The notes under the pieces: model-generated
Seen by the model: the letters and a program-made list of their open reading frames with translations, nothing else
Told to the model about the DNA's origin: nothing
Databases searched by the model: none
Program-made: the position numbers and the translations under genes
Part shown: piece by piece, positions 1 to 18,982 of the stretch
Position numbering within the stretch: the stretch's first letter is position 1
Layout of the letters: every line of letters starts with the position of its first letter
IMG/VR virus record: IMGVR_UViG_3300044825_002608
Coordinates: 35,658-99,657 of that record
Origin: a virus
Reading direction: 5' to 3' (one strand)
DNA length: 64,000 nucleotides

Positions 1-845
1 TTGATCCAACATCTAAGAAGTTTTCAAAATATTTCAAAGATCATGTGAAATATACTCCAAACTTTTTTTCCGAAGATTTGTATAGACAGAATTTTGGTAA
101 TGAAAAGGCAAAGTTGGTCACATCATTTTCTATGTTTTATGACTTAGAAAATCCTTGTCAGTTTGCAAAAGAAGTTAACAACATTCTTGATCCAGAAAAA
201 GGAATCTGGGTGTTGGAGCAAAGTTATATGCCAACTATGGTAGATAAAAATTCCTTTGACACCATATGCCATGAGCATCTTTCTTATTATGGAATGAAGC
301 AAATGAAATACATATTTGATCATTCTAATTTTAAGATTGTGGATTTTGAATTTAATGATGTGAATGGAGGAAGTGTATCCATTGTAGTTGCTAATAAAAA
401 TAGTCAGTATGTTGAATGTAGTGAAAAACTTAATTCAATTTTAAAATTTGAAATAGACGACGGATATAATACCGTTGAATTGTGGAAAAAATTTGAAGAT
501 AATATTAATTCCTGTAAAATTAAATTTTTTGAAATTGTTAATCAACTAAAGACTGATGGTCTAAGAATTGCTGCCTTGGGTGCTAGTACAAAGGGTAATA
601 TAACACTTCAAACTTGGAATCTAAGTGAATGTATAGAAGTAATAGGAGATGTAAATCCTGAAAAAAATGGATCATTTACCCCAGGTACATGGATTCCAAT
701 TAAAGATGAAAATAGTGTAATTGATCAGTACGATGTTTTTGTCATTCTTCCTTGGCATTTTAGAAACTTCTTCATGAATGCCGAAAAATTTAAAGGTAAA
801 AAACTTTTATTTCCTTTGCCAAATCCTGAACTTATCACGGTGTAA
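1..845 (+). CDS. NDP-sugar C-methyltransferase family (class I SAM methyltransferase), 5'-truncated by the window
   Basis: Frame is open from position 3 (DPTSKKF...). Motifs FDTICHEHLSYY, GASTKGN and ILPWHF are typical of NDP-hexose 3-C-methyltransferases. Confidence 0.85.
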   Translation, partial: DPTSKKFSKYFKDHVKYTPNFFSEDLYRQNFGNEKAKLVTSFSMFYDLENPCQFAKEVNNILDPEKGIWVLEQSYMPTMVDKNSFDTICHEHLSYYGMKQMKYIFDHSNFKIVDFEFNDVNGGSVSIVVANKNSQYVECSEKLNSILKFEIDDGYNTVELWKKFEDNINSCKIKFFEIVNQLKTDGLRIAALGASTKGNITLQTWNLSECIEVIGDVNPEKNGSFTPGTWIPIKDENSVIDQYDVFVILPWHFRNFFMNAEKFKGKKLLFPLPNPELITV

Positions 846-848
846 ATT

Positions 849-1790
849 ATGAAAATGAATAAAGATTCTAAAATTTTTGTAGCTGGTCATAGAGGATTAG
901 TTGGATCAGCAATCGTGAGATCTCTAAACGAAAGGGGATACACTAATATAGTAACAAGAACCAGGTCAGAGGTTGATTTGTTAAATCAATCGCAAGTCGA
1001 AGAATTTTTTAAAACAGAAAACATTGACTACGTTTTTGATGCAGCTGCCCGTGTTGGGGGAATTAATGCAAATAATAAATATTCTGCTGAATTTGTATAT
1101 GAGAATATTCAGATTCAAACTAATTTAATTCATTTCTCATGGAAATACGGTGTCAAAAAGTTTCTCTTTATTGGATCTGTTTGCATCTATCCAAAATATG
1201 CAGAAGTCCCTGTAAAAGAAGAATCTTTAATGACTGGTTATCTAGAACCTACAAATGATGCTTATGCCGTCGCTAAAATTTCGGGAATCAAAATGCTTCA
1301 GGCATACCATAAACAGTATGGATTTAAAAGCGTGTCTTTGATGCCATCTAACATCTATGGACCGGGGGACAATTTTCATCCAGAAAATGGGCACGTAATT
1401 CCTGCTATGATAACGAAATTTACCAATTCGAATGGAAAAAACGTTACATTCTGGGGCGATGGAACTCCAATGAGAGAATTTCTGTATTCTGATGATCTTG
1501 CAGATGCTTGTTTGTTTGCAATGGATAGATTTGAAAATGCAGAATTAATTAATGTAGGATCTGGCAATAACGTGAGCATCAAAGAACTATCGCAAATGGT
1601 AGCGTCAGTTGTTGGATATTCTGGTAAAATAGATTGGGACACTTCCAAACCAAATGGCACACCAAATAGACCTTTAGATTATTCCAAAATTAAAGAACTT
1701 GGTTGGCAACCAAAACACACTCTTCATGAGGGACTTAAAAAATCATATAAATGGTTTTTTGAAAACACTTGCTATGATTCATTAAAATAA
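849..1790 (+). CDS. fcl: GDP-L-fucose synthase
   Basis: GHRGLVGSA Rossmann motif, AARVGGI, GSVCIYPK, YAVAK catalytic motif, WGDGTPMREFLY. Confidence 0.96.
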   Translation: MKMNKDSKIFVAGHRGLVGSAIVRSLNERGYTNIVTRTRSEVDLLNQSQVEEFFKTENIDYVFDAAARVGGINANNKYSAEFVYENIQIQTNLIHFSWKYGVKKFLFIGSVCIYPKYAEVPVKEESLMTGYLEPTNDAYAVAKISGIKMLQAYHKQYGFKSVSLMPSNIYGPGDNFHPENGHVIPAMITKFTNSNGKNVTFWGDGTPMREFLYSDDLADACLFAMDRFENAELINVGSGNNVSIKELSQMVASVVGYSGKIDWDTSKPNGTPNRPLDYSKIKELGWQPKHTLHEGLKKSYKWFFENTCYDSLK

Positions 1791-1794
1791 AAAA

Positions 1795-2472
1795 ATGTAT
1801 AATAAAGTTTTTAATTTACAGGATTTTGAGATTTTTAATAAAATTCTATTAGAAAATCAGTGGAATTGTTTTCCACCTCAGCATCAATGGGAACACAGTA
1901 CTCATGTTTGTAAAGTTGTAAGTTTACTTGAAATAGTAAAGCAATTTGATAAACCACAAAAAATCGTAGACATAGGATCTGCTGCTGGAGCCTTTCCACA
2001 CTTAGCACAAAAAATGGGACATGATGTAACTGCTATTGATCTGGAGGGGTATAAGTACTTTTCTCAACTTGGAACAAATGCACTTTCTAAACTAATTACT
2101 GGAGATATTTTTGTAGAACTTGATAAACTGGAAGACAATAGCGTAGATATTTTTTCTGATGTCTGCTCAGTTACTCATTTTAATCACGAATCATTTACAA
2201 ACAAAGTTCATGATTTAAATCAATGGGAAAGAGTTTCTCAAAAAATTCACAGACCTTTGAAAAAGAATGGGCACTTTATAGTTTCAACAGATTGTAATGT
2301 TAGTAATACAAATGGTGAATTTATTTCACCATCCAAAATTATTGAATATGTTGAAAAAAATGGATTTGCTCTAAATGGTGAGTACAAAAAAGAATATGAA
2401 AATACAGATTGTTATATTGTATATAATGGTCAAAAACTTTCAGTAGTGTGCTTGGACTTCATAAAGTTATGA
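1795..2472 (+). CDS. class I SAM-dependent methyltransferase
   Basis: IVDIGSAAG motif I, VTAIDL, LKKNGHFIVS. Confidence 0.75.
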   Translation: MYNKVFNLQDFEIFNKILLENQWNCFPPQHQWEHSTHVCKVVSLLEIVKQFDKPQKIVDIGSAAGAFPHLAQKMGHDVTAIDLEGYKYFSQLGTNALSKLITGDIFVELDKLEDNSVDIFSDVCSVTHFNHESFTNKVHDLNQWERVSQKIHRPLKKNGHFIVSTDCNVSNTNGEFISPSKIIEYVEKNGFALNGEYKKEYENTDCYIVYNGQKLSVVCLDFIKL

Positions 2473-3179
2473 AAAAAAAATTTGCTGTATGTTTTTCTGG
2501 ATATCCTAGATTTGTCAAAAAAACATTTCCTGGGATATCTGAAAATTTATTAAAAGGACTGGGTGATTATGACATATATGCACACTTTCAATGGACTGAT
2601 GATTGGAAAAATAAAAAAATCCATCATTGTTTTGATAAAACATTCGAATCAAATGAATTAGAAGATTTTATTGAAGTATATACTCCATTTAATCTAAAAA
2701 AAATAAATGTAATTAAACCATATAATTTTGACGTATCAAATTACAATGGACTATCGTTATATCCTGGAATGAATTTAACGATTGAACAGAGTAGAGATCA
2801 ATTTTATAGAAGTAAGTGTCAATATCAGGGAATAGTTGATTGTATTAATTTAATTGATAATTTGGAAGATTATGAATACTTTATCAGGATTAGATCTGAT
2901 TTGATTTTTGAAAAGAAGTTAGAACTTAAAAATTTTGATAGCGATTGTATTGTAAATCAAAATGGATATATTGCTGGTTGGGATAGGAAATTTTGCGATT
3001 GGTTTTTTATCTGTCCGCGAAATCAATTAAACTTTTTTAAAGAACTTTCTAATATTGAACACCATTATAAAGACGGAATAGTTGCAATGCATTCTTTAGT
3101 AGAAGAATTGGGTATTCCATATAATATGAAAATTGACGAATTTAATATTCAATTACCATTTAAATTTTACTCTGAATAA
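2469..3179 (+). CDS. putative glycosyltransferase-like protein (AxxxSG[QY]PR...RxD family), paralog 1
   Basis: ATG overlaps the upstream TGA. FAVCFSGYPR...IRIRSD...DWF, similar to ORFs 3185 and 8371. Confidence 0.6.
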   Translation: MKKKFAVCFSGYPRFVKKTFPGISENLLKGLGDYDIYAHFQWTDDWKNKKIHHCFDKTFESNELEDFIEVYTPFNLKKINVIKPYNFDVSNYNGLSLYPGMNLTIEQSRDQFYRSKCQYQGIVDCINLIDNLEDYEYFIRIRSDLIFEKKLELKNFDSDCIVNQNGYIAGWDRKFCDWFFICPRNQLNFFKELSNIEHHYKDGIVAMHSLVEELGIPYNMKIDEFNIQLPFKFYSE

Positions 3180-3184
3180 ACTGT

Positions 3185-3961
3185 ATGAAAGTAGCATTAA
3201 TTTTATCTGGTCAACCCAGATTTGTAAGAGAATCTTTTCCATATCTGCATCAAAATATTATCAATCAATATGATGTTGATATTTTTGCACATTTATGGTT
3301 TGATGAAAATCTAACTAAAAATCCATATAAAGTTGAAGGTAATTGGACTTCTCAAACAATTGATCAAAATGCTGTAGAATATTTCAAAGAACTTTATAGA
3401 CCAAAATTAATTGAAGTTGAAGAAAGTATTCTTTTTAGAAATAAAAATTTAAACTTTGAACCTAGTTTAAAAAAGTATGTGAATTGGCCTACACCAAATG
3501 CTCCTGAAAATATGAAAAATGGAACCGAAGGGTTTTCAAATTTGATTAAATCAAATCAGATATCATATTTTTATAGTTTGAATAAGGCAAATAATTTAAA
3601 AAGAAAATATGAATATACTCATGATTTTAAGTATGATTGGGTAATTAGAACAAGAACAGATATTCAGTTGCATAATGCATTAAGACTAGAAACCTATGAT
3701 TCAAACTTTGTTCATTACACTGACATTAATAATCAAGAGTCTGTAACTCCTGGTTTGATATGTGATTGGATAAATTTTGGAAATTCTTATGTGATGGATA
3801 TATTTAATAGTTGTTTTTCGGTTTATGACCATCTCATAAATATGTGCATAGAAACTAACGAAGGATCCTGGTGTCCAGAATTAGTTCACCGAAAAATGAT
3901 TGAATTGCACGGTATTAAAGCACAAGGGCACTTCATTTCAGCATCTTTACCTAGATTTTAA
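3185..3961 (+). CDS. putative glycosyltransferase-like protein (SGQPR...RxD family), paralog 2
   Basis: KVALILSGQPR, FAHLW, YDWVIRTRTD, DWINFG, PE motif. Confidence 0.6.
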   Translation: MKVALILSGQPRFVRESFPYLHQNIINQYDVDIFAHLWFDENLTKNPYKVEGNWTSQTIDQNAVEYFKELYRPKLIEVEESILFRNKNLNFEPSLKKYVNWPTPNAPENMKNGTEGFSNLIKSNQISYFYSLNKANNLKRKYEYTHDFKYDWVIRTRTDIQLHNALRLETYDSNFVHYTDINNQESVTPGLICDWINFGNSYVMDIFNSCFSVYDHLINMCIETNEGSWCPELVHRKMIELHGIKAQGHFISASLPRF

Positions 3962-3962
3962 T

Positions 3963-4703
3963 ATGAATATAGTAATACCCATGGCAGGAGAGGGAACTAG
4001 ATTTCCCCGAGATCAGTATAAAATACCCAAGCCACTAATAGAGATTAATGGTAAACCAATGATTCAATGTGCTGTTGAATCTCTTGGAATAATAGGAACT
4101 TATCATTTTCTGGTTAGAAAAGATAGTTATTATGATCAGGTATGTACCCTTCTTCACAAAATTCTTCCAGATCCAAAAATTATTAGTGTTGAGGAAACTA
4201 CCGAAGGTCCTGCTTCAAGTTGTCTCTTATTTAAAAACTACATTAATAACGAGGAAGAATTAATTATATGTAATTGTGATCAAATAATGTTATGGGATCC
4301 TGAATTATTCTTGTTAAACGCTAGGTACTATAAGTATGATGGTATGATCGTAACATATAGTACTAATACTCCAAAAAATAGTTTTGCCCGCGTTAACTTT
4401 GAAGGATTTGTGGAACAGATCAAAGAGAAGGAAGTTATTAGTAATATATCTTTAAATGGAATACATTATTGGAGAAAAGGTAAATATTTTGTACACAGTG
4501 CCGAAAATATGATACAATGTGATGATAGAGCTCCTAATGGTGAATTCTACGTTGGTCCAACCTATAACTATATGATAAAGGATGGACTGAAAGTAGGTGT
4601 TCATCATATTCCAAACTACCAACACAATCCAGTGGGAGTTCCAGAAGATCTACAACTTTATATTGAAAAAGTAAAAAACAATGCAAATTACAAAAATCAC
4701 TGA
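3963..4703 (+). CDS. sugar-phosphate nucleotidyltransferase (NTP_transferase family)
   Basis: NIVIPMAGEGTRF...PKPLIEING, ICNCDQ, NGEFYV. ATG at 3963. Confidence 0.85.
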   Translation: MNIVIPMAGEGTRFPRDQYKIPKPLIEINGKPMIQCAVESLGIIGTYHFLVRKDSYYDQVCTLLHKILPDPKIISVEETTEGPASSCLLFKNYINNEEELIICNCDQIMLWDPELFLLNARYYKYDGMIVTYSTNTPKNSFARVNFEGFVEQIKEKEVISNISLNGIHYWRKGKYFVHSAENMIQCDDRAPNGEFYVGPTYNYMIKDGLKVGVHHIPNYQHNPVGVPEDLQLYIEKVKNNANYKNH

Positions 4704-5007
4704 TTATGTTAGGGGGTGGTTTATTGGAAACTTTGAACCTTCGGTATTAAAAACATCAGATTTTGAAGTCGGTGTTTTAACACATAAAAAGGGAGAATAC
4801 TGGGCACCACATTATCATAAAGAAAGTATCGAATATAATGTCCTGATAACTGGTAAAATGGTTGTTCAGGGAAATGAGTTAAATAGTGGTGATGTATTCG
4901 TATTTTCCAAGGGAGAGATTGCTGATCCAATTTTTCTTGAAGATTGTACATTAGTTGTTGTAAAAGTACCTTCTATTCCATCTGATAAATTTGAGGTTGA
5001 AAAATGA
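4681..5007 (+). CDS. cupin-fold protein
   Basis: PHYHKESIEYNVLITG metal-binding cupin motif, GDVFVF. Confidence 0.7.
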   Translation: MQITKITDYVRGWFIGNFEPSVLKTSDFEVGVLTHKKGEYWAPHYHKESIEYNVLITGKMVVQGNELNSGDVFVFSKGEIADPIFLEDCTLVVVKVPSIPSDKFEVEK

Positions 5008-6242
5008 AATTTTTTAGAGAATTAACTGAACAAGAAAAAAATCGCTGTGTAGTTGCAACATATTATATTGAATCTTATGAACAAATTGGTTCACTGAGAG
5101 ATGCTGCTTGGAATCTCGCAATTGGACAAAGTGTAGGTAATCCAAAAGTTCGTAACCGCTGGGAAAGTGATGAACTTTTTGAACTGGCATCTTGCGTCAT
5201 TTATGAAGATGAGCAGGAACTCTCCCAAAAATTTTCTGGAAAAGTTAAAATTGGTTTTCCTAAGGTTAATACTGATTGGGAAGGTGACGGTATTTCTCAT
5301 CTTCTTTGTCAAGTAATGGGTGGGCAGTTAGACATTGATGTTTTTAAAGTTTGTCGTCTTCAGAAACTAGAATTTCCTGCAGATGTAGAATCATTTTTTC
5401 TTGGACCCAAGAATGGTATTGATGGTATCCGTCAGTTTGTTAATCGCTATGACAAACCACTTTCGGGTGCAATTGTAAAACCAAAGACCGGTATTTCACC
5501 ACAAACTCTTGCTGAAATGGTCAAGGAACTTCTTGATGGTGGTGTAGATTTTATTAAGGAAGATGAGATTCTTTCCAATCCTTCATTCTGCCGTCTAGAG
5601 GATCGTGTAGAGTTGATTTCCAATATTGTGAATAACTGTGGAAGAAATGTAATTTATACATTTTGCATTAATGGTGATCACCATACTATTCTTGATCGTG
5701 CTAAGTTTGTTGCAGATAATGGTGGTAATGGAATTCATATCAACTTCTGGTCTGGTCTTGGAGTTTACAACTCCGTAAGAAAAATGAATCTTCCTTTGTT
5801 CATGCATTATCAAAAAAGTGGTGACAAGATTTTGACTGATAAGAGGCACGCATTTGGTATTGATTGGGATGTTCTATGCGATCTTGCTGGACTTTGTGGT
5901 GTGGATACTATTCATGCTGGAATGTGGGGTGGTTATCTGAGTGATGACGAAGATGAACTACGTCAAACTATGGCAACACTTCACAAGAGAAATGTTCTCC
6001 CGGCACTGAGTTGTGGAATGCATCCAGGTATCGTGAATACTACTGCAGAGAAATTTGGAACTGACTTCCTTGCAAATTGTGGTGGTGCAATTCATGGACA
6101 TCCTGGTGGAACTCTATCTGGTGCGTTGGCGATGAGGCAGGCAATTGATAAAACTCCTGGTCCAGAATTCCGTTCCGCTATCGATAAATGGGGTTATGAA
6201 ACTGGTGGTGGATCTTTGCCTGAGTGGGTACTAGATTTTTGA
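5004..6242 (+). CDS. RuBisCO-like protein (form IV RLP; RuBisCO large-subunit fold)
   Basis: KPKTG, GGVDFIKEDE (carbamylation motif), DTIHAG, LSCG, GGAIHGHPGG. Lacks the carboxylase residues E60, H294/R295 and K334. Confidence 0.92.
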   Translation: MKFFRELTEQEKNRCVVATYYIESYEQIGSLRDAAWNLAIGQSVGNPKVRNRWESDELFELASCVIYEDEQELSQKFSGKVKIGFPKVNTDWEGDGISHLLCQVMGGQLDIDVFKVCRLQKLEFPADVESFFLGPKNGIDGIRQFVNRYDKPLSGAIVKPKTGISPQTLAEMVKELLDGGVDFIKEDEILSNPSFCRLEDRVELISNIVNNCGRNVIYTFCINGDHHTILDRAKFVADNGGNGIHINFWSGLGVYNSVRKMNLPLFMHYQKSGDKILTDKRHAFGIDWDVLCDLAGLCGVDTIHAGMWGGYLSDDEDELRQTMATLHKRNVLPALSCGMHPGIVNTTAEKFGTDFLANCGGAIHGHPGGTLSGALAMRQAIDKTPGPEFRSAIDKWGYETGGGSLPEWVLDF

Positions 6243-6243
6243 T

Positions 6244-6738
6244 ATGAAAATTATTTCTCATCGAGGCAATTTAACTGGCATTAATCCAATTAGAGAAAAT
6301 AGTATCGATTATATTGAAGAGGCTATTGCTGAAGGATTTGATGTTGAAATTGATTTGAGAGTTGAGGATCATCAGTGTTATCTTGGTCACGACGATCCTC
6401 AATATTATGTGACCATGGAATGGCTGAGAAAATATAAAGATGTTCTTTGGATTCATTGTAAGAATCGTGAGGCACTTGAAAAAATATCTAGTTCTGTGGT
6501 AGAATTTAACTACTTTTGGCATGAGAGTGATCGATACACTTTAACCAGCAAGGGAATTGGGTGGGTTTTAGTCGGACAACTACCATATTCAAAATCTGTG
6601 ATTGTCTTGCCTGAAAATAGTGAATTGTTCTCTCAAAATCCAGAATACATACAAGAAGGATACGGTATTTGTACTGATAATCCAATTTTTTATAAAAAAA
6701 TAGTAAAAGAGATTAAACCTTATGAAGTGGCAAACTGA
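6244..6738 (+). CDS. glycerophosphodiester phosphodiesterase / PI-PLC-like protein
   Basis: IISHRGN, GFDVEIDL, LGHD, WIHCKN, GICTD. Confidence 0.75.
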   Translation: MKIISHRGNLTGINPIRENSIDYIEEAIAEGFDVEIDLRVEDHQCYLGHDDPQYYVTMEWLRKYKDVLWIHCKNREALEKISSSVVEFNYFWHESDRYTLTSKGIGWVLVGQLPYSKSVIVLPENSELFSQNPEYIQEGYGICTDNPIFYKKIVKEIKPYEVAN

Positions 6739-7363
6739 TCTTATCAAAGATATTAGAAGCAATACCCCATATGATGATACCGAAGCAGGTATCAATCATT
6801 TTCTACATATCTGGCCTGGTATTGAAGAAGATCCTGGTGTTCTAAATCCTTTTGATGGTGTTGAGTGTAGTGAGTGTAACAAAGCAGCTTTGTTGGAGCA
6901 ATTTTTAAAAGTTCGTGATAATTGTGAAGCAATTCTTGAAATTGGAATTGGTAGAAATGGTGAAAATTCTTTTGCTCACGTTTTCTTTAAAAATAAAAAA
7001 GAAGAAACTAAGTATGTAGGAATTGACATTGAAGACCGTAGTTGGCTGATTGATTGTGGTGAAAACATCTACACAATTCAAGGTAGTAGTTCAAACTATG
7101 AGGAAAATGTAGAAATCTTCAAAACTATGGGGATTGAAAAGTTTGATTTTATTTTTATTGATGGCGACCATAGTGTAAATCAAGTTCTTAGAGATTGGGA
7201 ATATTCAAATCTTCTTAATGAAGGTGGTATTGTTGGATTCCATGATACTAGTCATCATACTGGACCTTATCTATTCGTTAGAAATTTAAATAAGGATGTT
7301 TGGGATGTAATTGAAAATGCTTGCCCACAAGACTATGGAATTGGATTTGCTAGAAAAAAATAA
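6722..7363 (+). CDS. SAM-dependent methyltransferase (Methyltransf_24-like)
   Basis: ILEIGIG, FIFIDGDHS, GGIVGFHD. Confidence 0.8.
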   Translation: MKWQTDLIKDIRSNTPYDDTEAGINHFLHIWPGIEEDPGVLNPFDGVECSECNKAALLEQFLKVRDNCEAILEIGIGRNGENSFAHVFFKNKKEETKYVGIDIEDRSWLIDCGENIYTIQGSSSNYEENVEIFKTMGIEKFDFIFIDGDHSVNQVLRDWEYSNLLNEGGIVGFHDTSHHTGPYLFVRNLNKDVWDVIENACPQDYGIGFARKK

Positions 7364-7366
7364 ATC

Positions 7367-8374
7367 ATGAATCACATTGAAAAACTAAAGTCAAAGTATA
7401 AAGTTATTGTTTGGGGATTTAAACCTAATTCCCAAGGAATTTATAAAAATACTGTAGGATATGTTTGGAATGGATTTTATAGAGGTTTCAAATCATTAGG
7501 GTTTGAAACCTATTGGTTTTCTGATGATGATTATGATGAAACAATAGATTATTCTAATTGTATCTTCATCGCTGAAGCCTGGGATAGTAATAAGATACCC
7601 ATTAATGATACTTCTATTTACTATGTGCATTGTGCATACGATCCTGCCAAATATATTGGAAAGGTGAAGAAGTTCGTTGACATGCGTTATAATCAAAAAT
7701 ATATGCGTAATCCAAATTATATTTTTGATCGAAATAAAGATGAAGACGTTAAATTGGGACCATGTTGCTATTATCAACAGTCTACAAATAAAACCATTCA
7801 TCTTAAGAATGGATATGTTGACTATGATATTGAAGACTTTGATAAAATTTACACAAACTGGGCAACCGATTTACTTCCCGAAGAAATGAATGAAAATGAC
7901 ATTTATTTGGAAAGGGAAAATCTAATTGTATTTCTTGGGACAGTCTATTCTGATCAATACACAAATATTCCAGAATTACAGGAATTTGCACAGGTTTGTG
8001 AAAAAAATAATGTCAATTTCTTAGTTAATCCTTACTCTTATGGATCTGACCAAATTTCTGTCAGTGATTACATATCAAATTACAAAAGATCATTATTTGG
8101 ATTGGATTTAAGGGGTAAGGATAATAGAGAAACTGGATATATCCCATGTAGGGTATTCAAAAATGCAAGTTATGGTCTTTTAAGTACAACGAATTCTGAA
8201 GAAGTTTATAAAGAAATGGAAGGTTATTGTGTTTATAATCCTTCCGTGACTCAATTATTTTATGATGCTATGCAAAAAAGAACAGATTTTGAATTCATTA
8301 AAGACTCTTTTTATTATGTAAAAGAAAATCATACTTATATCAATAGATGTTCTGACCTACTGAAAATTTTATGA
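7367..8374 (+). CDS. putative GT-B glycosyltransferase
   Basis: C-terminal RVFKNASYG...VKENHTYINR resembles CgeB/GT1-like C-termini; cluster context agrees. Confidence 0.55.
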   Translation: MNHIEKLKSKYKVIVWGFKPNSQGIYKNTVGYVWNGFYRGFKSLGFETYWFSDDDYDETIDYSNCIFIAEAWDSNKIPINDTSIYYVHCAYDPAKYIGKVKKFVDMRYNQKYMRNPNYIFDRNKDEDVKLGPCCYYQQSTNKTIHLKNGYVDYDIEDFDKIYTNWATDLLPEEMNENDIYLERENLIVFLGTVYSDQYTNIPELQEFAQVCEKNNVNFLVNPYSYGSDQISVSDYISNYKRSLFGLDLRGKDNRETGYIPCRVFKNASYGLLSTTNSEEVYKEMEGYCVYNPSVTQLFYDAMQKRTDFEFIKDSFYYVKENHTYINRCSDLLKIL

Positions 8375-9093
8375 AAGTAGCATTTTGTTTTTGTGGACAA
8401 CCTAGAAATGTTGTTAAAACTCTTGATAACATTAAGGAATCGTGGGGAACTAATCAAGAATTAGATTTTTTCTTCCATACATGGAAACCTGACGGCACAA
8501 CTCCTTATCGGATTGATACGCCGTCTGATTTTTATTTTAAGGGTATTGAGCAATACTTACTGAAAAAATTAAATCCAGTTATGTATGAAATTCAGGAGCA
8601 AATAATCTTCGAAAATCAATATGAAGATTCTCCTCACTGGCCTACCCGTAGTGTTTTTATTCCAAATCCATCTCAAAATATTCAATCATTTTTTTACTCT
8701 TTAAAAAAATCTAATGATTTAAAGAGGCAATATGAAATCGAAAACAATTTTCGTTACGATTGTGTAATTAGATGTAGATTTGATTATATCTTTACAAAGA
8801 AATACAATGTTAAAGATTTTGACTTAAATTATTTAAATGTAAAAAATGATTGTAAGCATACTGAATATGCAATTAATGATCATATTGCAGTATCAAATAG
8901 TGAAAATATAGATGCTTATTGTTCTGTATTTGATAATCTTGAAAAATATTATAATCAGGGTATTGAGTTCAATGCTGAAGTAATGCTAGGATATAATGCT
9001 ATGATGCATGGATTAAAATATCACAAAACTCTTGGTGATGGTAAAGAGTCTTATGTATCAACTCAATTTGAAAGAGCGAAGGTTTTCTCATGA
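8371..9093 (+). CDS. putative glycosyltransferase-like protein (GQPR...RxD family), paralog 3
   Basis: KVAFCFCGQPR, FFHTW, YDCVIRCRFD, INDH. Confidence 0.6.
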   Translation: MKVAFCFCGQPRNVVKTLDNIKESWGTNQELDFFFHTWKPDGTTPYRIDTPSDFYFKGIEQYLLKKLNPVMYEIQEQIIFENQYEDSPHWPTRSVFIPNPSQNIQSFFYSLKKSNDLKRQYEIENNFRYDCVIRCRFDYIFTKKYNVKDFDLNYLNVKNDCKHTEYAINDHIAVSNSENIDAYCSVFDNLEKYYNQGIEFNAEVMLGYNAMMHGLKYHKTLGDGKESYVSTQFERAKVFS

Positions 9094-10049
9094 ATATTGC
9101 TTTTATTGGTCCTGGTGTAATGCCAATCCCACCAGATGGTTGGGGTGCAGTGGAAATGATGATTTGGGATTATGCTACAATTATGGGTGATCTTGGTCAC
9201 ACTGGTGCAATCATTAATACTCCAGATAGGAATGAAATTATTAATGAATTGATGCAGGATAAATTTGATGTGGTTCACTTACATTATGATGTGTTCCATG
9301 ACATAATCCCAATTATACTTGAAACTATAGATACAAAACTAATCGTTTCTAGTCATTATCCATATATTAACAATCCTAGTATGTGGAATCGTGATAATTA
9401 TCATCCAATAATGAATTCTTATGCGAGAAACGATAATTTTTATATCTTTGCATCTAGTCAAAATGACATCAATACATTTATAAACCATGGTGCAAAAGAA
9501 GAAAATTGTTGGATGAGTAGACTAGGAGTTCTTTCTAGTTCTTACAAGTTTGATCAGAATCATACATATGAAAAAACTCTGTGCTTCTCTCAAATTTGTG
9601 ACCGTAAGCGACAGTATTTAATTCAAGATTTTGATGATGTTGATTTTGTTGGTCGTATAGAATATGGTAAATTTAATAATCGAAAAAATTATAAAGGAGA
9701 ATATACTAGAGATACTTTAAATTCTGAAATTACAAAGTATGGTAATTTTACACTATTAAGTTCTATTGAAAATACAACTCCTCTTGCAGTAAAAGAAGCT
9801 CTAGTTTGTGGGTTGGGTGTAGTTGTTTCTGAAGCAGTTTCTTTAGAATTAGATTGCACTCAAAAATTTATTGATGTAATTCCTGAAAATAAGATCAATG
9901 ATTTATCTTTTCTACATGATGTGATTAAATCTAATCGAGAGTATTCTATTTCTCATAGAGAGGAAATAAAACAATATGGTGATAATGTTTTTGGATTGCA
10001 GAGTATCATTGAAAATGAATATATTCCAAAATTAGAATCTCTACTATGA
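9090..10049 (+). CDS. GT4-like glycosyltransferase
   Basis: IPPDGWGAVE N-terminus; ENTTPLAVKEA (EX7E-like). Confidence 0.75.
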   Translation: MNIAFIGPGVMPIPPDGWGAVEMMIWDYATIMGDLGHTGAIINTPDRNEIINELMQDKFDVVHLHYDVFHDIIPIILETIDTKLIVSSHYPYINNPSMWNRDNYHPIMNSYARNDNFYIFASSQNDINTFINHGAKEENCWMSRLGVLSSSYKFDQNHTYEKTLCFSQICDRKRQYLIQDFDDVDFVGRIEYGKFNNRKNYKGEYTRDTLNSEITKYGNFTLLSSIENTTPLAVKEALVCGLGVVVSEAVSLELDCTQKFIDVIPENKINDLSFLHDVIKSNREYSISHREEIKQYGDNVFGLQSIIENEYIPKLESLL

Positions 10050-10990
10050 AAATAAGTATTATTGGTCCAAATACTCCCATCCCTCCTATTGGATGGGGTG
10101 CTGTTGAGAGTTTGATATGGGATGTCAAACTAACATTAGATGAATTGGGACACAATGTTCAGATCATCAACGTTGGAGATCCTTATAAGATCATTCAAAT
10201 GATTAACGAGTATCGTCCAGATTTTGTTCACATCAATTATGATGATTGGATTAGTATCTATCCATATGTTCAATATCCATGTGCGGTAACAACACACTTT
10301 GCATATATTGAACGACCAGAAATGATGGGCGATTATCGCCAAAGAATTTTCGATCAGTTTAAAAAAATTAAACCAAATGTATTTGGATTGTCTGAAGGGA
10401 TTAATCACATCTACGAAAATCTTTCAAATATTCCTAAAAGCAAACTTTATTTGAACCACAATGGTGTTGCCTTAAAAAATTTTAGAGTAACTTCAAATCC
10501 AAAGTATTCTGATAGATCAATCTATCTTGCAAAAATCGATTACAGAAAACGGCAACATATGTTTCAAAAAATTGATTCTCTTTGGTATGCTGGGAATATT
10601 GCAGATTATAGATTTGACTCTAATAAAAATTATCTTGGTGAGTGGCAAAAAAATTATCTTTATGAAAACTTGACTGAGTATGGTAACTTAGTTCTATTGA
10701 GTGATGGTGAGGCACATCCTCTAGTTTGTATGGAAGCATTTGCTGCTGGACTGGGGGTAGTTATTAGTCAGTGGGCAGCGGCAAATTTAGATCTTAAAAA
10801 AGAGTTTATTACGGTTATACCTGAAGATAAAATAAATGATATTGAGTTCGTCGATGAATGTATTAAACGTAATAGGGAATATTCTATTCAAAATAGGAGT
10901 GAGATATTAGAATATGCAAAACAGTTTGATTGGAAAAATGTAATCAGCAATTATTACATACCAAATATTAAAAAGGTTATTGAATTATGA
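10046..10990 (+). CDS. GT4-like glycosyltransferase (paralog of 9090)
   Basis: IPPIGWGAVE; EAHPLVCMEAFAAG EX7E motif. Confidence 0.8.
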   Translation: MKISIIGPNTPIPPIGWGAVESLIWDVKLTLDELGHNVQIINVGDPYKIIQMINEYRPDFVHINYDDWISIYPYVQYPCAVTTHFAYIERPEMMGDYRQRIFDQFKKIKPNVFGLSEGINHIYENLSNIPKSKLYLNHNGVALKNFRVTSNPKYSDRSIYLAKIDYRKRQHMFQKIDSLWYAGNIADYRFDSNKNYLGEWQKNYLYENLTEYGNLVLLSDGEAHPLVCMEAFAAGLGVVISQWAAANLDLKKEFITVIPEDKINDIEFVDECIKRNREYSIQNRSEILEYAKQFDWKNVISNYYIPNIKKVIEL

Positions 10991-11778
10991 TAGGATTTAA
11001 TTCTTTAGGAAAACTTGGAAGATTTGGAAATCAAATGTTTCAATATGCTGCTCTCAAAGGAATCGCTAGTAATCGAGGATATGAAATTTGCATACCAATA
11101 TCTGAGAGTAAAAATGAATGGACTGATCATCAACTTAACTGTGCATTTAAGATGTCAACTTTAAATCAGTTGAACTATCAATACATTGACTATGATCGTC
11201 CTACTGTAGTTGAAAGTGGATTTTCTTTTGATGAAAAATTATTTAATGAGTGTCCTGATTGGGTAACTATTCAAGGGTTTTTTCAAACAGAAAAATACTT
11301 TAAACATATTCGCAATCAACTCTTAATTGATTTTCAATTTCATGATGATATTTTAGAACCTGCAAAAGAAGTTATTCTAAATTGGAAAAATCCAGTTGCT
11401 CTTCATATACGCAGAACGGATTACATTACAAATCCAAATCACAGTGTATTACCTATTGAGTATTACGAAAAATCTTTGAAAGAATTTGATGAAAATTGTG
11501 AAATAATTATATTCTCTGATGATCCTCAGTGGTGTGCAGAGCAAAAACTTTTTGAATCTGATAGATTTATGATTTCTGAAACAGATAATAACTACTTAGA
11601 CATGTGCCTTATGTCTCTTTGCTCTGGGCATATTATTGCCAATAGTTCTTTTAGTTGGTGGGGTGCGTGGTTGTCGAATAGTAAAAAAGTTATTGCCCCA
11701 TCAAATTGGTTTGGTGAGTCTCATAATAAACACCTAGATACTAAAGATCTTATACCGGAAAATTGGATGGTGATTTGA
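10987..11778 (+). CDS. alpha-1,2-fucosyltransferase (GT11)
   Basis: GRFGNQMFQYA, GFFQTEKYF, HIRRTDY, IFSDD, IIANSSFSWWGAWL. Confidence 0.93.
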   Translation: MIGFNSLGKLGRFGNQMFQYAALKGIASNRGYEICIPISESKNEWTDHQLNCAFKMSTLNQLNYQYIDYDRPTVVESGFSFDEKLFNECPDWVTIQGFFQTEKYFKHIRNQLLIDFQFHDDILEPAKEVILNWKNPVALHIRRTDYITNPNHSVLPIEYYEKSLKEFDENCEIIIFSDDPQWCAEQKLFESDRFMISETDNNYLDMCLMSLCSGHIIANSSFSWWGAWLSNSKKVIAPSNWFGESHNKHLDTKDLIPENWMVI

Positions 11779-12494
11779 TGAAAGTTGCAATTGTATTCAT
11801 TGGTACTTCAAAGTATTTAAATTTTCTTCCAAAATACTATGACAATATCCATGAAAATTTTCTTCCCAATTCAGAAAAAACATTTTTAGTTTTTACCGAT
11901 GGTGAGGGAGATTTTCCTGAAGATATTAAAGTCTACCCTCAGGAACATCTTGAGTGGCCTTATATTACATTAACTCGTTTTGAGATTATTAATAGGGCAA
12001 GGGAAGAAATTCTTAAAAATGATTGGTTAGTATTTTTGGATGCCGATACTCTTGTTGTAGATAAAGTATCTGAAGAAGAATTTTTTACAGACAAGCATTT
12101 ATTTGGAGTTTGGCATCCTTGCCATTACTTACAAATGCCTCCGCATAATAAATTGCCTGGAGCATTTGAAACTAATTCAAAATCTTTATCTTATGTTGAC
12201 GTTGAAAAGGAAATGCCATCCATTTACTATCAGGGATGTTTATGGGGAGGAAAAGTTCCTTATGTGCTAGAAATGATTGATGAACTTCAAGATAGGGTAA
12301 ATAAAGATCTTGATAATGATGTTGTTGCTATTTGGCATGATGAAAGTCATTTGAACAAATATTTTATAGAACATAACAACGATGTTCATACTTTAAATTC
12401 TGAATATGCTTATCCTGAAGTATTTTCTGAATATTGTAACTTTGAACCAAAAATTATTCACCTTGCAAAAGATAATTCTAAGTATCAAACTTAA
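11778..12494 (+). CDS. GT6 family glycosyltransferase (alpha-1,3-Gal/GalNAc transferase)
   Basis: VFTD, DAD (DXD) motif, YYQGCLWGG, WHDESHLNKYF. Confidence 0.92.
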   Translation: MKVAIVFIGTSKYLNFLPKYYDNIHENFLPNSEKTFLVFTDGEGDFPEDIKVYPQEHLEWPYITLTRFEIINRAREEILKNDWLVFLDADTLVVDKVSEEEFFTDKHLFGVWHPCHYLQMPPHNKLPGAFETNSKSLSYVDVEKEMPSIYYQGCLWGGKVPYVLEMIDELQDRVNKDLDNDVVAIWHDESHLNKYFIEHNNDVHTLNSEYAYPEVFSEYCNFEPKIIHLAKDNSKYQT

Positions 12495-12497
12495 AAA

Positions 12498-13292
12498 ATG
12501 GACAAAAATAAATCTGCATATAAACTAAAAAACATTGCTCCAATTTATTATCTTAATCTTGATGGGCAACCTGAGAGAATGGAGTACATGGAGGAGCAAT
12601 TTAAATATTGGGAAATAGAAAATTACACTCGCATTTCTGCTTATGATGGACGTGAAGATGATCTAAGCGATATTGTCAAGGGACGTTATCCAGAAAATAT
12701 GACTTCTGGAGAAATTGGATGTACAACTTCTCATCTAAAAGCAATTAAACACTGGTATGAAACTAGTGACTCTCCCTATGCAATTTTCATGGAAGATGAT
12801 GTGGACTTGCAACTTGTTAAATTTTGGAATTTTACATGGAAGGATTTTGCATCTAAATTGCCTTATGATTGGGATGTTATTCAACTTGCAATTATCTGCA
12901 CAGGAAACCTACACGTAAAACTTCACAAAAGGTTTGTAAATGATTTTTCTACCGCTGCATACATGATTACGCGACATCATGCAGAAAAACTCATAAAATT
13001 TCATATTCGTGATGATAAGTACAAATTAGATCAAGGTGTAAAACCTAGAGCAGTTGCAGATGATCTAATTTATAACTCTGGTAATACGTATTCAATACCT
13101 CTATTTCTGTATCGTATTGAACTTGGGTCATCAATTCATCCAGAACATATTGATGTTTTTCATCGAGGTAGTCATGATGGACTGCTTCAATTTTGGGAAA
13201 AGCAGGGGTATGAAATGAATATTGATGATCTGATGGACTATGATCCATATTTGGGAAGAATCACGGAGTCTTCCCAACCGCACGGTCAGTGA
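12498..13292 (+). CDS. GT25 family glycosyltransferase
   Basis: YYLNLD...ER, GEIGCTTSHL, IFMEDD. Confidence 0.88.
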   Translation: MDKNKSAYKLKNIAPIYYLNLDGQPERMEYMEEQFKYWEIENYTRISAYDGREDDLSDIVKGRYPENMTSGEIGCTTSHLKAIKHWYETSDSPYAIFMEDDVDLQLVKFWNFTWKDFASKLPYDWDVIQLAIICTGNLHVKLHKRFVNDFSTAAYMITRHHAEKLIKFHIRDDKYKLDQGVKPRAVADDLIYNSGNTYSIPLFLYRIELGSSIHPEHIDVFHRGSHDGLLQFWEKQGYEMNIDDLMDYDPYLGRITESSQPHGQ

Positions 13293-13308: not shown

Positions 13309-13337
13309 TTGACAGCAACTCCTCTCTCATATATAAT
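13309..13337 (+). promoter_or_regulatory. sigma70-type (early) promoter for hli
   Basis: TTGACA-17 nt-TATAAT, a perfect consensus. Confidence 0.85.
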
Positions 13338-14033: not shown

Positions 14034-14047
14034 ATCCATAATAATTG

Positions 14048-17894: not shown

Positions 17895-17920
17895 AAATAT
17901 GAGAAATTACATTGGAGTCT

Positions 17921-18982
17921 ATGGTATCTTCAACACTTTCACAACCAATTCAACAACGAGGATGGTTTGATGTACTTGACGATTGGCTTAAGCGTGATAG
18001 GTTTGTTTTTGTCGGTTGGTCTGGTTTACTATTATTCCCGACTGCTTATCTCGCTCTGGGTGGTTGGCTTACGGGAACTACGTTCGCAACCAGTTGGTAT
18101 ACTCATGGTATTGCGAGTTCTTACCTTGAGGGTTGCAATTTCCTTACCGCTGCTGTTTCTACTCCTGCTGATGCTCTCGGACATTCCCTTCTACTTCTTT
18201 GGGGTCCAGAAGCTCAGGGAGATTTCGTCCGTTGGATCCAACTTGGGGGACTCTGGACTTTTGTGGCACTACACGGATCTTTCGCTTTAATTGGATTTAT
18301 GCTTCGCCAGTTTGAGATTGCTCGACTGGTTGGTATCCGCCCTTACAACGCAATTGCATTCTCTGGTCCGATTGCGGTGTTTGTGAGTGTGTTTCTGATG
18401 TATCCACTGGGTCAATCCAGTTGGTTCTTTGCTCCCTCCTTTGGAGTTGCTGCTATCTTCCGATTTCTTCTGTTTATTCAAGGATTTCATAATTATCTGT
18501 TAAATCCGTTTCATATGATGGGAGTTGCTGGTATACTAGGTGGAGCACTTCTCTGTGCTATTCATGGTGCAACAGTTGAAAATACTCTATTTGAAGATGG
18601 TGATAAAGCAAATACTTTCAAAGCATTTGAACCGACTCAAGAAGAAGAAACCTATTCTATGGTCACAGCTAATCGTTTTTGGTCACAAATTTTTGGCATT
18701 GCTTTCAGTAACAAGCGTTGGTTGCATTTCTTTATGCTTTTTGTTCCTGTCATGGGTCTTTGGACATCTTCTATTGGGATTATTGGTCTTGCTCTCAATC
18801 TACGTGCTTATGATTTTGTAAGTCAGGAGATTCGTGCAGCAGAAGATCCAGAATTTGAGACTTTCTACACAAAAAATATACTGCTTAACGAAGGTCTTCG
18901 TGCTTGGATGGCACCAGTAGATCAACCTCATGAGAACTTTGTGTTTCCAGAAGAGGTGTTGCCTCGCGGTAATGCTCTATGA
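17921..18982 (+). CDS. psbD: photosystem II D2 protein
   Basis: [23 protein letters not shown] ... [12 protein letters not shown]. Confidence 0.98.

What the first reader, a model, noticed from the sequence alone, without database searches (positions are those of the whole stretch)
3963..6738. RuBisCO-like protein inside a phage glycan-biosynthesis operon
The 412-aa ORF keeps K175/K177 (KPK), the carbamylation motif KEDE, H327 and the phosphate-binding GG loops. It has Q for E60 (GQSVG), HYQK for HxHR, and Y for loop-6 K334, so it should not fix CO2. It is tightly coupled to a nucleotidyltransferase, a cupin and a GDPD-like enzyme, among glycosyltransferases. Characterised form IV RLPs act in methionine salvage (MtnW enolase) or branched-sugar acid catabolism (apionate pathway). 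Inference: this four-gene module makes an unusual NDP-activated (branched or acidic) sugar or polyol by enediolate chemistry, a biosynthetic role for the RuBisCO fold in a virus.
Basis: partly seen in the sequence, partly recalled or inferred. Interest (0 to 1): 0.82.

Follow-up and report, generated by a model that had tools for sequence, protein, structure and literature searches.

The report
Phage RuBisCO-like enzyme in sugar-activation module
A freshwater T4-like cyanophage carries an intact RuBisCO relative that cannot fix CO2 and that, in phages, SAR11, Legionella and tiny archaea, sits next to or is fused with a sugar-activating enzyme, so it most likely helps build an unusual activated sugar for surface glycans, a role never tested for this enzyme family.

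Summary
Window 3963-6738 encodes four tightly packed genes: an RmlA/GlmU-type nucleotidyltransferase (NTPt), a 108-aa metal cupin, a 412-aa RuBisCO-like protein (RLP) and a 164-aa miniature GDPD-like phosphodiesterase. They lie in a 13-kb glycan island of a T4-like cyanophage.

The RLP keeps the carbamate-lysine/Mg core and the equivalents of R295 (as K/R) and H327. It has lost E60, T65, W66, N123, H294 and K334, so carboxylation is not expected.

It belongs to a sharply bounded, monophyletic clade, separate from MtnW-like RLPs and from bona fide RuBisCO. This is probably the 'Form IV-like' phage clade of Jaffe et al. 2019, whose function is unknown.

New here:
- An NTPt lies within 3 kb of the RLP in 93 of 94 loci with enough flank.
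- RLP-NTPt, NTPt-RLP, RLP-NTPt-cupin, GDPD-RLP and NTPt-GDPD fusions exist.
- RLP-less variants, including cultured Synechococcus phage B3, carry a beta-phosphoglucomutase-family HAD fused to the same NTPt type.
- Legionella pairs RLP-NTPt with LicD.

Best reading: the RLP is an enolising isomerase that supplies the phosphorylated substrate which the NTPt activates for glycan decoration. The product is unknown. The scan has met this cassette before on other DNA.

The parts
3963..4703 (+). Nucleotidyltransferase (NTPt), RmlA/GlmU/ManC-type, 246 aa
   Evidence: Pfam NTP_transferase 26.2 bits over cut-off. NCBIfam best matches are rmlA_long and GlmU, all below cut-off. Family profile A5 hits PDB 4evw 'NDP-sugar pyrophosphorylase' at 2e-37, then ManC, GlmU and RmlA at about 1e-11. 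The G-x-G-x-R and E-K motifs are invariant. An NTPt lies within 3 kb of the RLP in 66/67 viral and 27/27 cellular well-flanked loci.
4681..5007 (+). Small metal-binding monocupin, 108 aa
   Evidence: Cupin_7/Cupin_2 hits below cut-off. H44, E51 and G58 are invariant and H46 nearly so, forming cupin metal motif 1. AF2 pLDDT is 96.5. The top Foldseek hits include Thermococcus phosphomannose isomerase 7zvm (TM 0.68-0.70) and putative sugar-phosphate-isomerase cupins 3i7d and 3l2h, among many other cupins. Present in 70 of 119 RLP loci. Fused to RLP-NTPt in P0310/P0311.
5004..6242 (+). RuBisCO-like protein (RLP), 412 aa, non-carboxylating, 'Form IV-like' clade
   Evidence: Pfam RuBisCO_large 3.4e-43. 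Best PDB match is 2cwx at 1e-38. All NCBIfam equivalogs are far below cut-off. Family invariants: Q42 N46 P47 R50 G107 D110 K159 K161 K185 D187 E188 H245 N247 Q270 Y311 S336 C337 G338. The clade is monophyletic with 100 SH-aLRT support.
6244..6738 (+). Miniature GDPD-like phosphodiesterase, 164 aa
   Evidence: Invariant H6 R7 G8 N19 E35 D37 G48 H49 H71 K73. The profile hits GDPD 3i10 at 2e-4. AF2 pLDDT is 91.7 and Foldseek's best hits are GDPDs, with TMq up to 0.67. Found in about 83 of 119 RLP loci. Fused to the RLP in P0159 and to an NTPt in L094.
6722..7363 (+). Methyltransf_24 / CmcI-like methyltransferase, overlaps the end of the module
   Evidence: Pfam 8.2e-8. Homologues occur in 38 viral RLP loci. 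FkbM or TylF methyltransferases hold similar positions in other loci.
3185..3961 (+). DUF7796 protein directly upstream; candidate transferase of unknown fold
   Evidence: Pfam DUF7796 26.9 bits against a cut-off of 27. A homologue lies next to the NTPt in 41 viral loci and in SAR11 loci. Not LicD-like by hhalign and no PDB relative.
3..13292 (+). Glycan-biosynthesis island that holds the module: C-methyltransferase, SDR epimerase/dehydratase, methyltransferases, two DUF7796 genes, GT4, GT11, GT6, GT25
   Evidence: Pfam. All genes are on the + strand. The best promoter-like site is at 13309 and terminator-like sites at 14047 and 16617 follow the array.

Best explanation
The 412-aa protein is an active, non-carboxylating member of the RuBisCO superfamily. 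It keeps the carbamylated-lysine/Mg2+ machinery that abstracts a proton next to a carbonyl, and it keeps most of both anion-binding sites. I infer that it enolises and isomerises a common ketose phosphate or bisphosphate.

Its product, possibly after an aldose-ketose or epimerase step by the small metal cupin, is the phosphorylated substrate that the adjacent RmlA/GlmU-type nucleotidyltransferase joins to an NMP, giving an NDP-activated sugar or ketose.

That donor is then used by the island's transferases and methyltransferases to decorate a surface glycan of the infected cell. The miniature GDPD-like enzyme has a complete phosphodiesterase active site. It probably acts on the phosphodiester or NDP-linked product, for example by transferring or trimming a sugar-phosphate, the place LicD holds in Legionella.

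Shown here: the fold, the residue pattern, clade membership, conserved synteny, the fusions and the glycan-cluster context. Inferred: the order of steps, the substrate, the product, and the benefit to the phage (surface remodelling, such as exclusion of competing phages).
For: 1. Active site. K175/K177/K201/D203/E204 are invariant in 99 family sequences. R295 (as K/R) and H327 are kept in nearly all of them, whereas MtnW-like RLPs have P/S/L at these positions. The family-specific invariants Q42, N46, R50, D110, H245, N247, Q270, Y311 and C337 argue for selection on a catalytic site.
2. Synteny. An NTPt lies within 3 kb in 66/67 viral and 27/27 cellular loci with at least 1.5 kb of flank. It is upstream in phages and some SAR11, and downstream in DPANN archaea, Legionella and other SAR11.
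3. Fusions in independent architectures. RLP-NTPt occurs in at least 27 clusters of 658-672 aa. NTPt-RLP occurs in 8 clusters of 634-651 aa. RLP-NTPt-cupin occurs in P0310/P0311. GDPD-RLP is P0159. NTPt-GDPD lies beside an RLP in a Micrarchaeota MAG.
4. Alternation. RLP-less loci carry a beta-phosphoglucomutase-family HAD, a phosphomutase/phosphatase family that acts on sugar phosphates. It is fused to the NTPt in cultured Synechococcus phage B3 gp358, followed by a GDPD-like gene 77.6% identical in DNA to the window's. In fusions the RLP is joined to this same NTPt subtype. This points to the RLP acting before the NTPt.
5. Context. GT2, GT25, GT17, Wzz, ABC exporter, WavE and FkbM genes surround the module. 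Legionella and Tatlockia have LicD | RLP-NTPt.
6. The NTPt is of the sugar-1-phosphate type, with PDB 4evw at 2e-37.
Against: There is no biochemical datum for any member. The substrate and product are unknown, and fusions do not give the order of steps.

The module also works without the RLP. NTPt + cupin + GDPD-like loci have neither RLP nor HAD (12 of 68 GDPD-anchored viral loci). Two alphaproteobacterial genomes have cupin + NTPt and no RLP. Three loci carry both the RLP and the HAD-NTPt fusion, so the two are not strict alternates.

No kinase, reductase or known substrate-supplying gene is conserved beside the module. Cupin fold matches do not discriminate between functions. The HAD could be a phosphatase and not a mutase.
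Confidence: 0.68

Rival explanations
1. The RLP acts after the nucleotidyltransferase. It binds the phosphate of an NDP-linked ketose or keto-sugar and isomerises or epimerises the activated sugar, as RmlC/FdtA-type cupins do. The cupin would be a second tailoring enzyme.
For: Fusions and synteny fit either order of steps. The cupin profile touches WxcM-like NDP-sugar ketoisomerases weakly (E 0.3). The island has other NDP-sugar tailoring genes, a C-methyltransferase and an SDR.
Against: All characterised RLPs act on small phosphate monoesters (established knowledge; R. rubrum and R. palustris example in PMC5893883). The P1 glycine loops and the K/R271 + H304 site look like a RuBP-type two-anion pocket with no room assigned for a nucleotide. 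The alternate partner of the same NTPt is a HAD of the beta-PGM family, which acts on sugar phosphates and not on NDP-sugars.
Confidence: 0.15
2. RLP + cupin form a salvage pair like the MTA-isoprenoid shunt. There a DeepYkr RLP acts as a 5-methylthioribulose-1-P 1,3-isomerase and a cupin acts as a methylsulfurylase. Here the pair would recycle a SAM by-product, and the glycan genes would be neighbours only.
For: An adjacent RLP + cupin pair with exactly this function is proven in R. rubrum and R. palustris (PMC5893883). The island is rich in SAM-dependent methyltransferases, and one related locus has a radical-SAM gene.
Against: No mtnA, mtnP, mtnK or mtnB genes were seen beside the module among the neighbours that were annotated. 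The conserved partner is the NTPt, not the cupin, and the two are fused in dozens of clusters. The family forms a separate clade. The distal site keeps K/R + H, not the hydrophobic residues of methylthio-binding RLPs. The cupin family is rare: 3 strong hits in 401 Alphaproteobacteria, all next to this NTPt. I could not fetch the R. rubrum cupin for a direct comparison.
Confidence: 0.05
3. It is a working CO2-fixing RuBisCO, an auxiliary photosynthesis gene like psbA/psbD.
For: It sits in a cyanophage that carries a photosystem II gene. Its nearest solved relatives by sequence are form III RuBisCOs.
Against: E60, T65, W66, N123, H294, H298 and K334 are all replaced, and are replaced in the same way across the whole family. 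NCBIfam rubisco_III scores 194.5 against a cut-off of 497. The family is common in heterotrophs such as SAR11 and Legionella.
Confidence: 0.01
4. The RLP is a non-catalytic scaffold or regulator of the nucleotidyltransferase.
For: Fusion and adjacency would also fit a regulatory subunit.
Against: The Mg ligands, the carbamate lysine, K175/K177 and a set of new pocket residues are invariant over sequences only 35-45% identical overall. That pattern is typical of an enzyme.
Confidence: 0.04

Closest known systems
'Form IV-like' RuBisCO-like proteins of phages and Beckwithbacteria (Jaffe, Castelle, Dupont & Banfield 2019, Mol Biol Evol, PMC6389311)
   Same: Encoded by phages, with Myoviridae assigned to some. 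Highly divergent from other RLPs and placed outside them. Key residues only partly kept. Found in many environments. My tree gives the same picture.
   Different: That paper leaves the function open. In the passages I read it reports no neighbourhood, fusion or cellular distribution beyond Beckwithbacteria. Here the clade is also found in SAR11, DPANN archaea, Legionella, Verrucomicrobia and others, always with an NTPt. I did not compare sequences with theirs directly.
DeepYkr RLP + cupin methylsulfurylase of the MTA-isoprenoid shunt (R. rubrum, R. palustris; PMC5893883)
   Same: An RLP gene sits next to a small cupin gene. The RLP is an enolising 1,3-isomerase of a ketose 1-phosphate, with no carboxylation.
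   Different: That pathway is catabolic salvage with MtnP and MtnA and has no nucleotidyltransferase. This family is a separate clade, keeps a RuBP-like distal anion site and lies in glycan clusters.
MtnW / YkrW 2,3-diketo-5-methylthiopentyl-1-phosphate enolase
   Same: RuBisCO fold with the carbamate-Mg core. PDB 2oej/2oek match at about 3e-32.
   Different: TIGR03332 scores 122.6 against a cut-off of 513.6. The general-base Lys at the N123 position is Gly here. The MtnW-like clade is separate with 99 SH-aLRT support.
OiaX-type RLPs of apiose and acid-sugar catabolism
   Same: RLPs that act on phosphorylated keto acid-sugars. NF042437 gives 5e-45.
   Different: The score is 154 against a cut-off of 700. 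Those genes sit in transporter-linked catabolic loci: the Azospirillum paralogue lies 2.4 kb from a DctP-type TRAP solute-binding gene. They do not sit with an NTPt and glycosyltransferases.
Lic-type phospho-substituent decoration (LicA/LicC/LicD) and bifunctional ManC (GMP + PMI cupin) sugar-activation cassettes
   Same: An RmlA-fold nucleotidyltransferase makes an NDP- or CDP-linked donor that a LicD transferase or a glycosyltransferase uses. Legionella loci have LicD next to RLP-NTPt. One alphaproteobacterium has an NTPt-like + cupin fusion that resembles ManC.
   Different: Here the supplier of the phosphorylated substrate is an RLP, or a beta-PGM-family HAD, where those cassettes use a kinase or a phosphomannomutase. 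A miniature GDPD-like enzyme is also part of the set.

Membership tests
RuBisCO large-subunit superfamily (Pfam PF00016) | Score over Pfam's gathering cut-off for the catalytic TIM-barrel domain | tested here: met
   148.5 bits against 30.1, residues 138-382. 99 PDB RuBisCO/RLP sequences match at E<=1e-3.
Bona fide RuBisCO (forms I-III) | Full set of catalytic and RuBP-binding residues: E60, T65, W66, N123, K175, K177, K201, D203, E204, H294, R295, H298, H327, K334, S379, G381, G403, G404 | tested here: not met
   Q, N, P, G, Q, K, D and Y stand at E60, T65, W66, N123, H294, R295, H298 and K334. TIGR03326 scores 194.5 against 497.
MtnW/YkrW enolase | NCBIfam equivalog cut-off, Lys at the N123 position, and clade membership | tested here: not met
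   122.6 against 513.6 bits. Gly at that position. The N123K clade is separate with 99 SH-aLRT support.
OiaX 3-oxo-isoapionate-4-phosphate decarboxylase | NCBIfam equivalog cut-off and an acid-sugar catabolic context | tested here: not met
   154 against 700 bits. No transporter or acid-sugar catabolic gene was recognised among the annotated neighbours; no DUF1537 kinase was identified anywhere, the Azospirillum OiaX-like locus included.
DeepYkr RLP (MTRu-1-P 1,3-isomerase) with cupin methylsulfurylase | Clade membership, adjacency to the methylsulfurylase cupin, and mtnP/mtnA in the genome | tested here: inconclusive
   An adjacent cupin is present, but no reference DeepYkr or methylsulfurylase sequence could be fetched. 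The family forms its own clade among 113 representatives.
'Form IV-like' phage RLP clade (Jaffe et al. 2019) | Phage-encoded (Myoviridae); a separate deep clade outside the other RLPs; partial form IV residues | tested here: met
   T4-like phage. 230 IMG/VR contigs carry relatives. Separate clade with 100 SH-aLRT support. No direct sequence comparison with their set was possible.
Sugar-1-phosphate nucleotidyltransferase (PF00483, RmlA/GlmU/ManC fold) | Pfam cut-off; G-x-G-x-R loop and E-K motif | tested here: met
   26.2 against 21.2 bits. G9, G11, R13, E155 and K156 are invariant. PDB 4evw at 2e-37. Substrate not testable.
GDPD (PF03009) for ORF164 | Full (beta/alpha)8 barrel of about 230-250 aa with the H-R ... 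E-x-D ... H-D catalytic set | tested here: inconclusive
   The catalytic set is invariant and GDPDs are the best sequence and fold matches. The protein is only 164 aa and has no Pfam hit at 0.01. It is a shortened relative.
Cupin superfamily, metal-binding monocupin | Double-stranded beta-helix with the H-x-H-x3-E motif | tested here: met
   H44, E51 and G58 are invariant and H46 nearly so. AF2 pLDDT 96.5 and 191 PDB cupin matches at E<=1e-3. Pfam scores are below cut-off.

The most novel reading that the evidence does not exclude
The RLP, with the cupin, is a mutase-free way to make the phosphorylated substrate of a nucleotidyltransferase. It would walk the carbonyl of an ordinary ketose (bis)phosphate by enediolate chemistry, and would be interchangeable in evolution with a beta-phosphoglucomutase-type HAD. 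The miniature GDPD-like enzyme, or LicD in Legionella, would then install the activated unit as a sugar-phosphate substituent on the cell surface. This would be the first anabolic, glycan-building role for the RuBisCO superfamily. It would also be a widespread and unrecognised surface decoration of SAR11, DPANN archaea and the myophages of SAR11 and cyanobacteria.
Probability: 0.3. Interest if true: 0.85.

Novelty: new variant of a known kind. Interest (0 to 1): 0.72.

Why it matters
Every characterised RuBisCO-like protein works in catabolism or salvage: methionine/MTA salvage, or acid-sugar and apiose breakdown. A clade wired and repeatedly fused to a sugar-activating enzyme inside surface-glycan clusters would give the fold a biosynthetic role.

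It would also give a function to the phage 'Form IV-like' clade that was left open in 2019. These genes are abundant. 230 IMG/VR contigs carry them, as do SAR11 genomes, and this phage recurs in freshwater metagenomes of several studies.

They sit in the hypervariable glycan and host-recognition islands thought to shape phage-host recognition (PMC7029224). It also warns against counting phage 'rbcL' hits as carbon-fixation auxiliary genes.

The set is small, soluble and easy to express, so the question can be tested directly.

Tried and rejected
Contexts were taken from the search for related loci and the genome search instead.
- No relative of the RLP was found by tblastn in 50,697 deposited phage records.
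- DUF7796 as a LicD-like transferase: rejected by hhalign (probability 0.04). It has no PDB relative, so its fold stays unknown.
- The N-terminal 330 residues of P0208, upstream of an RLP fragment, gave no match. This may be a gene-calling artefact.
- Direct comparison of the cupin with the R. rubrum methylsulfurylase could not be done. The second RLP of Azospirillum turned out to be OiaX-like and has no such cupin. A profile search of 401 Alphaproteobacteria found only module-linked cupins.
- The extra C-terminal 120 aa of the 'long' NTPt in cupin-only loci gave only a weak Pnkp1 match (7e-4) and is unassigned.
- Sequencing runs: no RNA holder is listed for window 3963-6738.
- ESM Atlas for ORF164 returned only unnamed viral clusters. 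The nearest named cluster has GDPD in 25% of members, at score 0.85.
- The literature searches that named the RLP together with a nucleotidyltransferase or glycosyltransferases found no paper that links the two. 'IV-GOS' retrieved only one review, so identity with Tabita's IV-GOS clade is untested.
- Complex prediction was not used. No claim of physical binding is made.
Full report
WHAT IS THERE

The window is part of a 99.7-kb IMG/VR viral contig with a CheckV completeness of 47%. It is a T4-like cyanomyovirus. It carries a photosystem II gene at 17912-18982, a run of tail-fibre and baseplate genes and a baseplate tail-tube cap.

Positions 3-13292 are one uninterrupted array of genes on the + strand. 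They encode sugar-modifying enzymes and glycosyltransferases: a C-methyltransferase, an SDR epimerase/dehydratase, methyltransferases, two DUF7796 proteins, and GT4, GT11, GT6 and GT25. The best promoter-like and terminator-like sites lie just after the array.

Within the array, 3963-6738 holds four genes that overlap or nearly touch:
- a nucleotidyltransferase (NTPt), 3963-4703;
- a 108-aa cupin, 4681-5007;
- the 412-aa RuBisCO-like protein (RLP), 5004-6242;
- a 164-aa ORF, 6244-6738.

A Methyltransf_24 gene overlaps the end of this set.

THE RLP

Pfam RuBisCO_large scores 148.5 bits. The best solved relatives are form III RuBisCOs (2cwx, 1e-38). Uncharacterised RLPs (4nas, 3nwr) and the MtnW enolase follow. 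Every NCBIfam equivalog (form III, form II, MtnW, OiaX) scores far below its cut-off.

I checked the residues in the alignment to 2cwx and in an alignment with 113 representatives of the superfamily.
- Kept: K175, K177, K201, D203, E204, H327, S379, G381, G403 and G404.
- Replaced: E60 to Q, T65 to N, W66 to P, N123 to G, H294 to Q, R295 to K, H298 to D, and K334 to Y.

Across 99 non-identical family members from phages, bacteria and archaea, the core residues are invariant. So is a set of family-specific residues: Q42, N46, P47, R50, D110, H245, N247, Q270, Y311 and C337. This is the pattern of an enzyme with a remodelled pocket, not of a decaying gene.

The equivalents of R295 (K or R) and H327 bind the distal phosphate in RuBisCO. 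They are kept in nearly all members, whereas the MtnW-like sequences in the same alignment have P, S/A and L there. I infer that the substrate carries an anionic group at both ends, but this is inference only.

THE CLADE

A search of 1.84 billion representatives found 1447 relatives. The family signature is all-or-none. Twenty-two full-length clusters at 50% identity carry it. The next-best hits, at 33-34% identity, are bona fide form III-type sequences with the complete RuBisCO signature.

In an IQ-TREE analysis of 113 rows the family is one branch with 100% SH-aLRT support. It lies apart from the N123K (MtnW-like) clade, which has 99% support, and from the bona fide group.

This matches the 'Form IV-like' clade that Jaffe et al. 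(2019) described. They found about 80 phage sequences, some from Myoviridae, plus Beckwithbacteria, and left the function open. The existence of phage RLPs is therefore already known.

THE LINK TO SUGAR ACTIVATION

I collected 80 viral loci, out of 230 IMG/VR contigs with a relative, and 40 cellular loci. The cellular loci come from SAR11/Pelagibacter, Crocinitomicaceae, Woese-, Pace-, Nano- and Micrarchaeota, Verrucomicrobia, Elusimicrobia, Azospirillum, Turneriella, Balneola, Sphingobacteriales, Francisellaceae, three Legionella species and Tatlockia.

Among loci with at least 1.5 kb on both sides of the RLP, an NTPt of the same family lies within 3 kb in 66 of 67 viral and 27 of 27 cellular loci. 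The gene order differs between lineages. The NTPt is upstream in phages and one SAR11 group. It is downstream in DPANN archaea, Legionella and another SAR11 group. The cupin occurs in 70 of 119 loci and the 164-aa protein in about 83.

Fusions tie the parts together.
- RLP-NTPt proteins of 658-672 aa form at least 27 clusters at 90% identity, from ENA, JGI and Logan.
- A second set of 634-651 aa has the opposite order, NTPt-RLP.
- P0310 and P0311 (813-817 aa) are RLP-NTPt-cupin.
- P0159 is GDPD-like + RLP, cut by a contig end.
- A Micrarchaeota MAG has an NTPt-GDPD fusion beside its RLP-NTPt pair.

THE OTHER THREE PROTEINS

The NTPt family has the loops typical of sugar-1-phosphate nucleotidyltransferases. 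It matches PDB 4evw, an uncharacterised 'NDP-sugar pyrophosphorylase', at 2e-37. ManC, GlmU and RmlA follow at about 1e-11.

The 164-aa protein is a shortened GDPD relative. H-R-G-N, E-N, E-x-D, G-H-D and H-x-K are invariant. Its profile finds GDPDs. A confident model (pLDDT 91.7) has GDPDs as its best fold matches.

The cupin keeps the H-x-H-x3-E metal motif. It folds confidently (pLDDT 96.5). Its top matches include archaeal phosphomannose isomerases and putative sugar-phosphate isomerase cupins, but also many unrelated cupins, so this is only a hint.

The cupin family is rare and specific. In 401 sampled Alphaproteobacteria only three genomes have a strong match, each next to this NTPt.

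VARIANTS WITHOUT THE RLP

Two of those three genomes lack the RLP with this query. Their loci read: GDPD-like (about 205 aa), a HAD of the beta-phosphoglucomutase family, an NTPt or an NTPt-like + cupin fusion, and then the NTPt.

Cultured Synechococcus phages B3 and B23 match the window only over the GDPD-like gene, at 77.6% DNA identity. In B3 the gene before it, gp358, is a HAD_2 + NTP_transferase fusion. It lies in a similar island with GT11, GT6, a TylF-type methyltransferase, DUF7796 and GT25.

I then anchored on the GDPD-like protein and recovered 68 viral loci.
- 18 have the RLP, and 16 of these also have the cupin.
- 27 have the HAD-NTPt fusion without the RLP, and 3 of these have the cupin.
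- 12 have NTPt + cupin only.
- 2 of the 18 RLP loci have both RLP and HAD.

Pelagibacter sp. Uisw_094 also has both. In the RLP-NTPt fusions the NTPt domain is closer to the B3 type (43-53%) than to the window's own NTPt (37-39%).

The RLP and a phosphomutase/phosphatase-type HAD are therefore joined to the same kind of NTPt. I read this as both acting on the sugar phosphate before activation. What I found is a beta-PGM-family HAD.

CONTEXT AND USE OF THE PRODUCT

The neighbours are surface-polysaccharide genes: GT2, GT17, GT25, Wzz, an ABC exporter, WavE, a DegT aminotransferase and FkbM methyltransferases.

In Legionella and Tatlockia the only conserved glycan-related neighbour is a divergently transcribed LicD (6e-44). 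From established knowledge, that family transfers phosphocholine or ribitol phosphate from CDP-linked donors. This suggests that there the activated unit is installed as a phosphodiester-linked substituent.

In phages and SAR11, a DUF7796 protein of unknown fold and the GDPD-like enzyme are the candidates for that role. DUF7796 is not LicD-like.

Glycan genes in the hypervariable host-recognition islands of cyano- and pelagimyophages have been proposed to alter the host surface and prevent co-infection (PMC7029224). That is the most plausible benefit here, but it is untested.

RIVALS

A methionine/MTA-salvage role like the R. rubrum RLP + cupin pair (PMC5893883) is the best precedent for the gene pair. 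It does not explain the near-universal and repeatedly fused NTPt, the glycan context, the separate clade or the retained distal anion site.

Action on the NDP-sugar after activation cannot be excluded. CO2 fixation is excluded by the residues for practical purposes.

VERDICT

- Observation: confirmed.
- Interpretation: partly supported. The functional link to sugar activation is strong, but the product is unknown.
- The module is modular and cellular as well as viral.
- The phage RLP clade itself was published in 2019.
- This stretch of this phage recurs in freshwater metagenomes of five studies from 2019 to 2025.
- The scan has reported the same cassette on other genomes.

Noticed in passing
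P0189 and P0203 (representative-library proteins, not in the window): P0189 is a 583-aa protein that fuses a TIR_2 domain to a RuBisCO-like protein. It belongs to a different RLP clade, with a 483-aa sister, P0203. A TIR-RLP fusion hints at a defence or signalling link for another RLP group.
   Followed up: no
P0156 and P0166 (representative-library proteins): These are fusions of an IF-2B/e2b2-type ribose-1,5-bisphosphate isomerase with a bona fide form III RuBisCO (726-742 aa). They join two consecutive steps of the AMP pathway in one chain.
   Followed up: no
window 3-1790: A Methyltransf_14 C-methyltransferase, cut by the window start, sits next to an NAD-dependent epimerase/dehydratase. 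This is a classical NDP-hexose tailoring pair that could make a C-methyl branched sugar in the same island, independent of the RLP.
   Followed up: no
L133 (Synechococcus phage B3, MN695334) 4940-7453: A GIY-YIG/NUMOD3 homing endonuclease (gp357) sits on the opposite strand, directly before the HAD::NTPt fusion gene gp358 and the GDPD-like gp359.
   Followed up: partly
L096 3525-4472 and L100 7812-8759 (SAR11 single-cell genomes): A Thy1 (ThyX-like, 7e-56) gene lies directly upstream of GDPD-like, NTPt, RLP and a second NTPt. Two different nucleotidyltransferases flank the RLP in this SAR11 group.
   Followed up: no
window 29923-40692: A single 3589-aa ORF follows the tail-fibre genes. It was not examined.
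   Followed up: no
window 17912-18982: This photosystem II reaction-centre gene is named D1 by PHROGs. By megablast it is most similar (about 80-84%) to genes annotated psbD (D2) in S-PM2 and other cyanophages.
   Followed up: partly
window 3963-6738: The exact stretch is held (98-100% of sampled words) in freshwater metagenome runs of five studies between 2019 and 2025. The phage is therefore a recurrent freshwater population. Many relatives of the RLP are marine.
   Followed up: partly
L082 (WTHI01000081, 'Methanobacteriota archaeon' MAG, 4.6-kb contig) and L083 (Crocinitomicaceae MAG, 3.3-kb contig): These are short MAG contigs that carry the phage-type cassette. L082 has an RLP 83% identical to the window's and an NTPt 79% identical. 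They look like phage DNA binned into cellular MAGs.
   Followed up: no
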